Assembly: GCF_006345805.1 (NCBI RefSeq)
Contig: NW_021828611.1
Span: 1 to 8,004 of the forward strand
Direction: 5' to 3'
From: Octopus sinensis
Taxonomy: Eukaryota
Length of the DNA: 8,004 nucleotides
In this document: piece after piece, positions 2,012 through 6,813 of the stretch
Numbering within the stretch: the stretch's first letter is position 1
Layout of the letters: every line of letters begins with the position of its first letter
Notes under the pieces: generated by a model
The model's database searches: none
The model's input: the letters and a program-made list of their open reading frames with translations, nothing else
What the model was told of the DNA's origin: nothing
Program-made: the position numbers and the translations under genes

Positions 2012-2275
2012 GAAAGGAGCGTGGTAAGTAGTTAGAGAGGTGTGTACAATATTATATTGACAAGTGCGAACGAGGAAGAAAAATATGCTGAGTTGATAAA
2101 AACGTGTGGATAACAAAGCGTTCACCTCCAAAAGCCTTATTTTTCTCAGTTTAGCTAACGGTCAGCCTTCAGTAACACAAACATAGAAACTGTGAGAAGA
2201 CACCTTCATCCATTGATAGATTTTGTGATGAGAAAATATCGAAGGACTTATTTATATTCATTATATTTATTACAG

Positions 2276-2371
<96 letters not shown>

Positions 2372-4145: not shown

Positions 4146-4299
4146 TGAATAACAGTTTTCTGGTACCTTTGGTTCCATACCCATTCCGCATCATTAATTT
4201 TTCTGAACCAGGAGCGATCACCTTCTGAATTTTAAAAAAATATTAAATTTACTTAGATAATTAAATGACAGACAGGTACCTGTATTATATTTATTACAG

Positions 4300-4396
<97 letters not shown>
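4300..4396. repeat. Perfect (TAGA)n array
   Basis: Direct read. Confidence 0.97.
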
Positions 4397-5698: not shown

Positions 5699-6000
5699 GA
5701 AGAGGTTGCAGGATGTGACGATATGTATATCAGAAAGTCACACGAGAGAAATTTAAAAACGTATATGCCTTTTATTTTGATAATCTACAGATCGTGACCC
5801 CTCCCCCCTGTGGATTATGATGCCCTGAGCTCTAGTTTGTGTAGTGAATGATTAAATCTGATGTTGATAGTGTAGAAATTAATTTATTGGTTAATAATAC
5901 TTTCTACTCTACGCACAATGCATGAAACATCGACCCCAGTATGTAACTGGTACTTATTTCATCAACTCCGAAAGCATGAAAGACAAAGTCGACCTCGGTG

Positions 6001-6136
6001 CTTTTGCCTTTCATCCTTTCGGGGTCGATAAATAAAGTACCAGTTGCGCACTGGGGTCGATGTAGTTGACTTAATCCCTTTGTCTGTCTTTGTTTGCCCC
6101 CTCTATGTTTAGCCCCTTGTGGGCAATAAAGAAATA
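6001..6136 (+). mobile_element. 5'-truncated SINE family A copy inserted antisense into the host SINE
   Basis: 6003-6078 is the near reverse complement of 7844-7918. It has its own tail GCCCCTTGTGGGCAATAAAGAAATA, and the host SINE resumes at 6138. Confidence 0.88.
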
Positions 6137-6203
6137 CATTTGAACTAAGAATGTAAGGACGGACGAAATGACGCTGAGCATTTTGCCCGGCGGCGAAATT
6201 TTT

Positions 6204-6258
6204 TTCCCACGCGAGTTCCGGATCCCAGTTAGGAACTCATTTGCATACGGCCAATCAG
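6204..6258. promoter_or_regulatory. Motif cluster in the left TIR: CSL/Su(H), ETS-like, octamer/H2B box, CCAAT
   Basis: TTCCCACG 6204-6211; TTCCGG 6216-6221; CTCATTTGCATAC 6236-6248; GGCCAATCAG from 6249. These are motif matches only; function is unproven. Confidence 0.45.
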
Positions 6259-6648
6259 AGCTCAACTATCAAACTAATTTATGAGCGCATAACAAGTGAT
6301 TGGCGATAAAATAAGGTCACTTGGGTTAGGAATGACCATGCTTCTGTTCGCTTTTTATAATGCTTGTTTTTCTTGTTCTTGTTTCAACCATGGCTGCCTC
6401 TGCGTAGTTATTTGTGTTATTGTTTACTTTGTAAAGCAGTAAAGGGAGAGGGTTGCTTGCACATCACCCTCTACCCACATTTTTCCCATCCAGATCTTTT
6501 CCATATGGGACCCTAACAAAATCCTTCTAAAATCTCCTTCTAAAATCAGTCACAACTTGGCGATCGGTCGACTTACAACACTGTTCATCGTCTTGAGTTT
6601 ACTTGGTAGAGTGTGCTTGTTAACTTGACAACAAGGCCAAGGTGAGCT

Positions 6649-6703
6649 CTGATTGGCTGTATGCAAATGAGTTCATTACTAGAGTCCGGAACTCTCGTGG
6701 GAA
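6649..6703. promoter_or_regulatory. Mirror motif cluster in the right TIR
   Basis: CTGATTGGCT 6649-6658; GTATGCAAATGAG 6659-6671; CCGGAA 6686-6691; CGTGGGAA 6696-6703. Confidence 0.45.
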
Positions 6704-6813
6704 AAAAAATTTGCTGCCTTGCGTGCTAACGATTCTGCCACCTCGCTACCTTGTTTGTTAGCTAATAATGAGAACAAGAATGGCTCTTGTGGAAAATCGA
6801 ATGTTAAATAAAA

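What the first reader, a model, noticed from the sequence alone, without database searches (positions are those of the whole stretch)
6193..6714. MITE whose TIRs each carry a promoter/enhancer-like cassette (CSL + ETS-like + octamer/H2B box + CCAAT)
Seen: each 72-bp TIR holds, within about 55 bp, CGTGGGAA, CCGGAA, CTCATTTGCATAC and RGCCAATCAG. Five of the nine TIR mismatches fall in the 10-bp spacer between the ETS-like and octamer motifs. None breaks a motif; one is a tolerated G/A in RRCCAAT. Established: CGTGGGAA is the high-affinity CSL/Su(H) (Notch) site, ATGCAAAT is the POU octamer, CTCATTTGCATAC matches the vertebrate histone H2B-box consensus, RRCCAATCAG is the NF-Y site, and MULE TIRs can contain promoters. 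Inference: this may be a mobile regulatory module that spreads S-phase/POU/Notch-responsive sites through a cephalopod genome, or a relic of the parent transposon's promoter.
Basis: partly seen in the sequence, partly recalled or inferred. Interest (0 to 1): 0.72.

Follow-up and report, generated by a model that had tools for sequence, protein, structure and literature searches.

The report
Dead Mutator transposon carrying parent's promoter
This is one of roughly a thousand dead copies of a small cut-and-paste transposon in an octopus genome; the motifs in its end repeats are likely the leftover promoter of its parent enzyme gene, which likely crossed between animal phyla and survives in octopuses as a single, likely host-adopted gene.

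Summary
The element and all four motifs are real: 6193-6714, 72-bp TIRs, 9-bp target duplication. It is a non-autonomous Mutator-like (MULE) deletion derivative, 6-7% from the family consensus, with a strong NNCCNGGNN target preference. I found the parent: a five-exon MULE transposase whose ATG lies 86-111 nt from the same TIR. Related elements from other animals carry a POU-type site at the same TIR position plus varying promoter boxes, so the motifs are most likely the parent's promoter, or its transposase-binding site. A four-factor mobile module is not supported. All four motifs survive in 17 of 139 TIRs; the CSL and CCAAT cores decay neutrally; the ETS site lacks its flank; this copy lies on a gene-free repeat contig. 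Beyond the finding, the transposase is 78-81% identical to a sea-urchin protein and 67-71% to a mantis-shrimp protein (likely horizontal transfer). One copy is intact in two named Octopus species, with mostly synonymous changes and one spliced contig (likely domesticated); its own TIR octamer and CCAAT are broken.

The parts
6193..6714 (-). Non-autonomous MULE (MITE-size deletion derivative), 522 bp; minus strand = parent's sense
   Evidence: 89% identity to the 548-bp consensus, gaps counted
6184..6192 (+). Left 9-bp target-site duplication
6715..6723 (+). Right 9-bp target-site duplication (7 of 9 match)
6193..6264 (+). Left TIR (3' end of the parent)
6643..6714 (-). Right TIR (5', promoter-side end of the parent)
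6204..6211 (-). CGTGGGAA (CSL-like); decays at the neutral rate across copies
6696..6703 (+). CGTGGGAA (CSL-like), right TIR
6216..6221 (-). CCGGAA inside GTTCCGGAC, which resembles the target consensus and recurs in three related families; poor ETS site
6686..6691 (+). CCGGAA, right TIR
6239..6246 (-). Octamer ATGCAAAT (TIR positions 47-54); under-mutated across copies
6661..6668 (+). Octamer ATGCAAAT, right TIR
6249..6258 (+). RRCCAATCAG (NF-Y-like), left TIR
6649..6658 (-). RRCCAATCAG (NF-Y-like), right TIR; about 45 nt before the parent's ATG in longer family members
6598..6615 (-). Last codons and stop of the ancestral transposase, joined to the 5' end by the internal deletion (junction near 6616)
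   Evidence: C-terminus of P0123
6389..6421 (-). 33-bp piece of transposase coding sequence (NNNTNNYAE, around the catalytic Glu)
   Evidence: (91% to the parent)
6315..6368 (-). Piece matching sequence downstream of the parent's coding region
   Evidence: 81% over 54 nt
5926..6192 (+). 5' part of the very high-copy interspersed repeat (SINE-like; label inferred) that the element interrupts
6724..6760 (+). 3' continuation of the interrupted repeat

Best explanation
The element is a non-autonomous Mutator-like transposon formed by internal deletion of a transposase-coding parent, and the octamer and CCAAT box in its TIRs are likely the parent's own promoter elements, carried along because the TIR was needed for movement. 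Shown: TIR identity with the parent, 9-bp duplications, CCNGG-centred targets, loss of the start codon and coding exons, and divergence accumulated after insertion. Inferred: a host POU factor and NF-Y bound the 5' TIR to drive a transcript whose ATG sits 86-111 nt from the end, and the transposase mobilised derivatives in trans in one old burst. The CSL-like and ETS-like strings are likely incidental parts of the terminal recognition sequence, and this copy is likely a neutral passenger.
For: The parent locus L131 has the same TIR followed by five exons of a MULE/SWIM transposase; the predicted fold of its O. bimaculoides orthologue P0130 matches the IS256-family ISCth4 transposase. ATG at 86 nt (parent) and 111 nt (870-bp family) leaves the TIR as the only element-borne upstream sequence. 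The same TIR caps at least six different interiors. In 7 related families read from metagenome loci, 6 have ATGAATAT or ATGCTAAT at TIR positions 35-53. In the first 100 nt of the end examined, 3 add GTCACGTG, 2 an SP/KLF-like box and 1 a CCAAT. 3 of 5 tested have an open first exon starting at 102-155 nt. CSL, CCAAT and the H2B flanks decay neutrally. TSD divergence per copy 0.103 vs 0.089 expected, and a near star-shaped family. No gene-like ORF or RNA family on the contig. Maize MuDR TIRs are described as holding the promoters of both genes (PMC3310237, PMC10401008, passages).
Against: No transcription start, open chromatin or binding was measured. The octamer is under-mutated after insertion, which a purely neutral relic does not predict. 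The block lies where maize Mu TIRs have the predicted transposase site (positions 34-64 of an alignment; PMC10401008). The one retained parent copy has a broken octamer and CCAAT, and sits just downstream of a CpG-rich host stretch with NRF1-like and ETS-like strings (motifs recalled). The POU-type pattern set for the relatives was chosen after seeing them; L156 and L160 are close relatives; calling ATGAATAT a POU site is recalled knowledge.
Confidence: 0.58

Rival explanations
1. TIR positions about 24-60 are the transposase-binding site, and the likeness to POU/NF-Y sites is convergent or secondary. The retained Octopus transposase-derived protein might still bind it.
For: Position matches the predicted MURA site (34-64) in maize TIR alignments. 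The ATGAATAT/ATGCAAAT block sits at 35-54 in 6 of 7 relatives and in both TIRs; GTTCYGGAC-like words recur in 3 of 7. The TIR octamer is more under-mutated (0.41-0.68) than two interior octamers (0.62; 0.79, p 0.27), as expected if TIR context matters. The retained protein keeps the N-terminal C..C..HNH motif and DDE residues.
Against: The neighbouring boxes in relatives are classical host promoter words that change between families (E-box, SP/KLF, CCAAT). The deficit is confined to the 8-bp octamer; its flanks are neutral (O/E 0.97). No binding data.
Confidence: 0.24
2. The host keeps many TIR octamers as functional POU sites (partial exaptation), so the family acted as a spreader of POU-responsive elements.
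For: Octamer substitutions 29 vs 70.5 expected, below all 362 interior 8-bp windows; same direction in two further sets; not explained by 3-mer context in other repeats or by selection during remobilisation.
Against: It would need selection on about half of some 1,800 TIRs (estimate), many lying in repeats. The partner-TIR set against interior rates gives 0.82 (p 0.17). A third octamer context is not significant. The octamer was one of about ten blocks tested, and left and right TIR share one sequence context, so a longer-range mutability effect is not excluded.
Confidence: 0.11
3. One reading: a four-factor (CSL, ETS, octamer/H2B, NF-Y) mobile enhancer module wiring S-phase and Notch responses.
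For: All four strings are in the family consensus. Motif positions pooled are less mutated than non-motif ones in the anchored set (Mantel-Haenszel OR 0.63, p<0.001).
Against: The pooled effect vanishes in the interior-selected set (OR 0.98, 47 TIRs) and is driven mainly by the octamer. CSL core O/E 0.98-1.48; all four intact in 17 of 139; full ETS core in 2 of 139; CSL in 1 of 7 relatives.
Confidence: 0.05

Closest known systems
MULE/MuDR non-autonomous elements, maize Mu (PMC3310237, PMC10401008, bioRxiv 10.1101/2020.01.09.900282; passages seen)
   Same: 9-bp TSD, shared TIRs over heterogeneous interiors, deletion derivatives, TIRs that hold both a transposase site and promoters, plus sites for host proteins.
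   Different: TIR about 70 bp rather than 150-250; single multi-intron transposase gene with SWIM finger, no mudrB; POU/NF-Y-type words; tight NNCCNGGNN target.
Muta1, Aedes aegypti (PMC5225508; passages seen)
   Same: Animal MULE with hundreds of non-autonomous derivatives sharing TIRs; 8-9-bp TSD.
   Different: Muta1 has tandem-repeat TIRs and reinserted in yeast with no apparent sequence preference; most A. aegypti families have a FLYWCH finger. Here: simple TIRs, C at TSD position 4 and G at 6 in 88 of 92 elements.
MITEs amplifying E2F motifs in Brassicaceae (review PMC7329337; passages seen)
   Same: A MITE family multiplies a host transcription-factor word genome-wide; most copies are apparently without regulatory effect.
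   Different: There binding was shown; here it is untested, and the words trace to the parent's TIR.
Domesticated MULE transposases FHY3/FAR1 and animal 'FHY3' set (PMC10027918; passages and the 21-row FHY3 supplement sheet seen); SETMAR-MADE1 and PGBD3-MER85 pairs (recalled)
   Same: Single retained transposase-derived gene coexisting with many dead TIR copies.
   Different: This gene (XP_014775784 / LOC106873077) was not found in that paper's supplements. It is C-terminally truncated, keeps DDE, and appears young and horizontally acquired; TIR binding not shown.
Horizontal transfer of MULEs among invertebrates (Dupeyron et al. 2019, PMC6446971; passages seen)
   Same: Short branches between MULEs of distant phyla.
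   Different: That text has no mention of octopus; this lineage links Octopus, Lytechinus and Oratosquilla.

Membership tests
MULE/MuDR superfamily | 8-11-bp target-site duplication | tested here: met
   63 of 118 distinct elements match at 7 or more of 9; outer control identity 0.24; window copy 7 of 9
MULE/MuDR superfamily | Terminal inverted repeats shared with an autonomous element | tested here: met
   TIR 87-90% to parent L131 over 62 nt
MULE/MuDR superfamily | DDE transposase with CxxH, related to IS256 | tested here: met
   Parent: Pfam MULE/ZSWIM/SWIM hits below curated cut-offs; most homologues carry PF10551; D, D, CxxH, E present; top five Foldseek hits of the orthologue model are ISCth4
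MULE/MuDR superfamily | Demonstrated transposition by the cognate enzyme | not testable with these tools
   Needs an excision/insertion assay
MITE (non-autonomous, short, high copy) | Short, TIRs, no coding capacity, many similar-length copies | tested here: met
   548-bp consensus, most copies 480-560 bp; 641 exact 20-mers; about 1,800 TIRs estimated
TIR promoter of a transposase gene | Lies immediately upstream of the coding start, within the element | tested here: met
   ATG at 86 and 111 nt; exon 1 confirmed by Octopus proteins
TIR promoter of a transposase gene | Transcription starts in the TIR and depends on the motifs | not testable with these tools
   Only contigs were available; no CAGE or reporter
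Host-exapted multi-factor enhancer module | All motifs more conserved than spacers across copies | tested here: not met
   Only the octamer clearly; CSL, CCAAT and H2B flanks neutral
Host-exapted multi-factor enhancer module | Open chromatin, binding, nearby gene response | not testable with these tools
   No chromatin data or annotation; this contig shows no gene
Histone H2B box (OCA-S) element | Extended CTCATTTGCATAC matters beyond the octamer, upstream of a histone gene | tested here: not met
   Flank O/E 0.97; no histone-like ORF seen in the window
Domesticated transposase (parent locus) | Single copy, orthologous, intact ORF, purifying selection | tested here: met
   One full match in G000; 790-795-aa proteins in O. 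vulgaris and O. bimaculoides, 94% identical, same truncation; 14 of 21 listed changes synonymous; neutral ORF survival 0.9%. G000 exon 2 shows one frameshift, real or assembly error unknown
Domesticated transposase (parent locus) | Expressed, immobile, with a host function | tested here: inconclusive
   One spliced contig in a run only guessed to be RNA; no 3' TIR in L131 or L406; function untested
Horizontal transposon transfer | Identity too high for host divergence, tree incongruent, patchy | tested here: inconclusive
   Octopus-Lytechinus 78-81%, similar to 82% for another family between two urchin genera; other mollusc hits at most 53%; clade starred in both trees; AU rejects a mollusc clade. 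No dS against host genes, and paralogous families weaken the AU test

The most novel reading that the evidence does not exclude
A MULE that jumped between sea urchins, crustaceans and octopuses left about a thousand TIR-bearing MITEs and one domesticated transposase in Octopus. That protein, alone or with a POU factor, still occupies the octamer block of the TIRs in the germline, which is why this 8-mer is under-mutated, and so forms a young octopus-specific regulatory or genome-defence network.
Probability: 0.14. Interest if true: 0.82.

Novelty: new member of a known kind. Interest (0 to 1): 0.5.

Why it matters
The MITE itself is ordinary and warns against reading motif lists in TIRs as enhancers. 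The family gives specialists three testable things. First, a marine MULE lineage whose short TIRs keep a POU-type word at a fixed position while neighbouring boxes change, a candidate portable promoter for crossing phyla. Second, an unusually tight CCNGG-centred target. Third, a young, apparently domesticated transposase in Octopus with about a thousand candidate binding sites. The octamer's under-mutation is a natural experiment on whether protein binding or selection shapes neutral repeat decay.

Tried and rejected
Pfam MULE search of G000 (88 matches; 30 loci fetched) showed no TIR within 1.5 kb and did not list the parent. Reading the MITE interior as a 5' UTR plus intron was dropped once the parent showed it to be the 3' end. 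Selection during remobilisation as the cause of the octamer deficit was rejected: divergence is post-insertion. Simple 3-mer context was rejected; 5-mer data were too sparse. No octamer enrichment in 263 kb of masked flanks (O/E 0.94-1.09). The first partner-TIR tally included elements whose partner lay outside the cut and was redone. Six TIR rows (truncated, non-TIR or tandem) were dropped; tandem-array hits were not fetched for the anchored set, and L373 was kept out of it. L210/L211 (distant, long branch) were left out of the seven relatives. Sequencing runs: no RNA holder listed for the window stretch; contigs laid on it were dominated by other copies, so presence of this insertion in other individuals could not be told. 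PDB sequence search gave only spurious EGF-like hits. The careful tree did not finish; quick trees were used. Paper searches with no result; one search gave nothing pertinent; PMC232367 is not held. Dfam and Repbase could not be searched, so a prior library entry is not excluded. Earlier scan notes: none by sequence or words, none pertinent by place.

Full report
Observation. The element runs from 6193 to 6714 with 72-bp arms and nine mismatches, and all four motifs are in both arms. It is flanked by TGCCCGGCG and TGCCTTGCG and splits a very high-copy repeat that is continuous at a paralogue in the window. The window is a whole 8-kb contig of simple and interspersed repeats with no gene-like ORF and no Rfam match. 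The clustering of mismatches in the spacer is not significant once the fixed left/right difference at TIR position 38 is set aside (p 0.22).

Family. A DNA search gave 1,286 candidates, 40 scored, 30 fetched; their consensus is 548 bp and holds all four motifs. The octamer+CCAAT 20-mer occurs 641 times exactly; 49 of 139 anchored TIRs keep it, giving about 1,800 TIRs, probably a low estimate. Copies are 6-7% from the consensus and nearly star-shaped (pairwise over summed distance 0.93). Of 118 distinct elements with readable ends, 63 match at 7 or more of 9 flanking bases. Among the 92 with at least 5 matches, 88 have C at position 4 and G at 6, and the symmetrised profile is G-K-C-C-S-G-G-M-C; TSD GC is 72% against 39% in flanks. 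The same TIR caps interiors of about 550, 660, 680, 870, 970 and 1,250 bp.

Parent. The 870-bp form differs from ours by an extra 330 bp holding a start codon, a short exon and a donor site. Following it led to L131 (G000:C30, minus strand): the TIR, then five exons of a transposase. Pfam hits to MULE, ZSWIM RNaseH-like and SWIM are below cut-off, but most of the 120 listed homologues carry PF10551, and the model of the O. bimaculoides orthologue (pLDDT 78) matches ISCth4. The window copy keeps the two TIRs, a 33-bp coding piece, a piece of downstream sequence and the last codons. The window's right arm is the parent's 5' end; the ATG is 86 nt from the end in L131 and 111 nt in the 870-bp form. 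The MITE has lost it.

Relatives. A metagenome scan found 164 related stretches and kept 80; most contigs stop short of the ends. Ends were read for seven families with 41-51% transposase identity. All begin GC followed by an A/T run. Six have ATGAATAT or ATGCTAAT at positions 35-53, where ours has the octamer at 47-54. In the first 100 nt of the one end examined, three have GTCACGTG, two an SP/KLF-like box, one RRCCAAT, one the CSL string and two CCGGAA. Three of five tested have an open first exon from an ATG at 102-155 nt; a fourth opens from the next ATG. The pattern set was chosen after looking, and naming these words POU, E-box or SP/KLF sites is recalled knowledge. All 9 left flanks checked have the C4/G6 target pattern.

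Conservation test. To avoid selecting on the motifs I used anchors just inside the TIRs: 402 matches, 200 listed, 139 non-array TIRs analysed. Against interior rates by base class, observed/expected substitutions were: CSL core 0.98, CCGG block 0.77 (p 0.016; 0.83, p 0.07, against TIR rates), spacer 1.17, octamer 0.41 (29 vs 70.5; lower than all 362 interior windows), CCAAT 0.86, 10-bp NF-Y 0.83, H2B flanks 0.97. All four motifs are intact in 17 of 139. The octamer deficit recurs in left and right arms separately (0.47, 0.38), in 72 partner TIRs (0.68 against TIR rates, 0.82 against interior) and in 47 interior-selected TIRs (0.61, p 0.03), where pooled motifs do not differ from spacers (OR 0.98). 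Two interior octamers give 0.62 and 0.79 (p 0.27). Trinucleotide context does not explain it, nor does selection while jumping, since TSD pairs have diverged as much as interiors (0.103 vs 0.089). The cause is open: longer-range mutability, protection by a bound protein, or selection.

The retained gene. L131 is the only full match in G000. O. bimaculoides and O. vulgaris have 790-795-residue proteins with the same first exon and the same C-terminal truncation, 94% identical to each other; G000 exons are 91-100% identical to O. vulgaris apart from one frameshift in exon 2. This places the genome in Octopus. Of the 40 differences shown (345 found) when four runs were laid on the locus, 23 fell in coding exons; I left out 2 seen only in paralogue contigs, and 14 of the other 21 are synonymous. 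A 554-codon frame survived family-level neutral decay in 0.9% of simulations. One contig of a run guessed to be RNA joins exons 4 and 5 across a GT-AG intron (depth 3.4). No 3' TIR was found in the next 10 kb. In this copy the octamer and CCAAT are broken, and a CpG-rich host stretch lies directly upstream, which argues against the host valuing the cassette there.

Transfer. The protein is 78-81% identical to Lytechinus variegatus and 67-71% to Oratosquilla oratoria, but at most 53% to other molluscs listed; no squid or cuttlefish record appeared among the 120 and 50 hits shown. Octopus and Lytechinus form a starred clade in two quick trees, at about the distance that separates another family in two urchin genera, and an AU test rejects a mollusc clade. 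Horizontal transfer is likely; direction and date were not determined.

Mechanism. Most likely the TIR is the parent's end plus compact promoter, with a POU site and CCAAT box about 45-60 nt before the ATG, as MuDR TIRs hold promoters (PMC3310237, PMC10401008; passages). The chief rival is that the same block is the transposase site, which in maize lies at a like position. The two are not exclusive. CSL and ETS likenesses are probably incidental. Binding, start sites and activity are all inferred.

Known or new. It is a MULE-derived MITE by every feature testable here. Five paper searches for the motif combination, an octopus-urchin MULE transfer or the gene id returned nothing. PMC10027918 reports one Octopus 'FHY3' in its text, but its 21-row sheet has no Octopus entry and the accession is absent from the five supplements held. 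PMC8967140 does not mention MULEs. Repbase and Dfam were not available. Verdict: the finding as framed is an ordinary MITE with an inherited promoter-like TIR; the family's history and the octamer deficit lift it to moderate interest.

Noticed in passing
L131 (G000:C30:10700600-10710500, minus): Single retained transposase gene, intact in O. vulgaris and O. bimaculoides, mostly synonymous changes, one spliced contig; likely domesticated.
   Followed up: partly
P0002, P0123, P0131, P0132, P0124: Sea-urchin, mantis-shrimp and one unnamed transposase are 67-83% identical to the Octopus protein; likely horizontal transfer across three phyla.
   Followed up: partly
L373 (G000:C5:11010000-11016000); also C5:9.64 Mb, C3:46.97 Mb (L096), C24:8.47 Mb, L097: The TIR plus flank has been amplified into tandem arrays (about 152-bp unit in L373 and L096; about 77, 105 and 114 bp elsewhere): a MITE end turned satellite.
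   Followed up: partly
L041:1455-2692, L091:1013-2302: A 1,250-bp subfamily has long internal inverted repeats (about 400 bp), a foldback-like form.
   Followed up: no
L091:1013 and L095:1040-1048: Family members abut or overlap each other; in L091 one ends exactly at the target-like GTCCCGGAC inside another's TIR, suggesting the TIR is itself a target.
   Followed up: no
L406 minus strand (G000:C30:10691000-10700999): A 517-codon C2H2 zinc-finger ORF lies a few kb downstream of the retained transposase gene, on the same strand.
   Followed up: no
L404, about 1.6 kb upstream of the parent's TIR: CpG-rich stretch with NRF1-like GCGCATGCG and CGGAAGT strings (motifs recalled) right before the TIR; candidate host promoter.
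   Followed up: partly
L160, L164-L171, L172, L177, L155, L156, L187: Full-length or near full-length related MULEs in metagenome contigs with near-perfect 46-108-bp TIRs; the L164 group has identical ends at different flanks, so it looks recently active.
   Followed up: partly
L061-L090: Other MULE-domain loci in G000 (88 matches), several with open frames of 300-460 codons on small contigs; no match to this TIR within 1.5 kb.
   Followed up: no
window 6522-6547: This copy lost about 24 bp of the consensus interior, including the interior octamer, and has a 13-bp tandem duplication there.
   Followed up: partly
window 2246-2300 and 4284-4330: Two ATAG microsatellites are preceded by the same TTATATTTATTACAGTAG word, perhaps the end of a microsatellite-associated repeat.
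   Followed up: no
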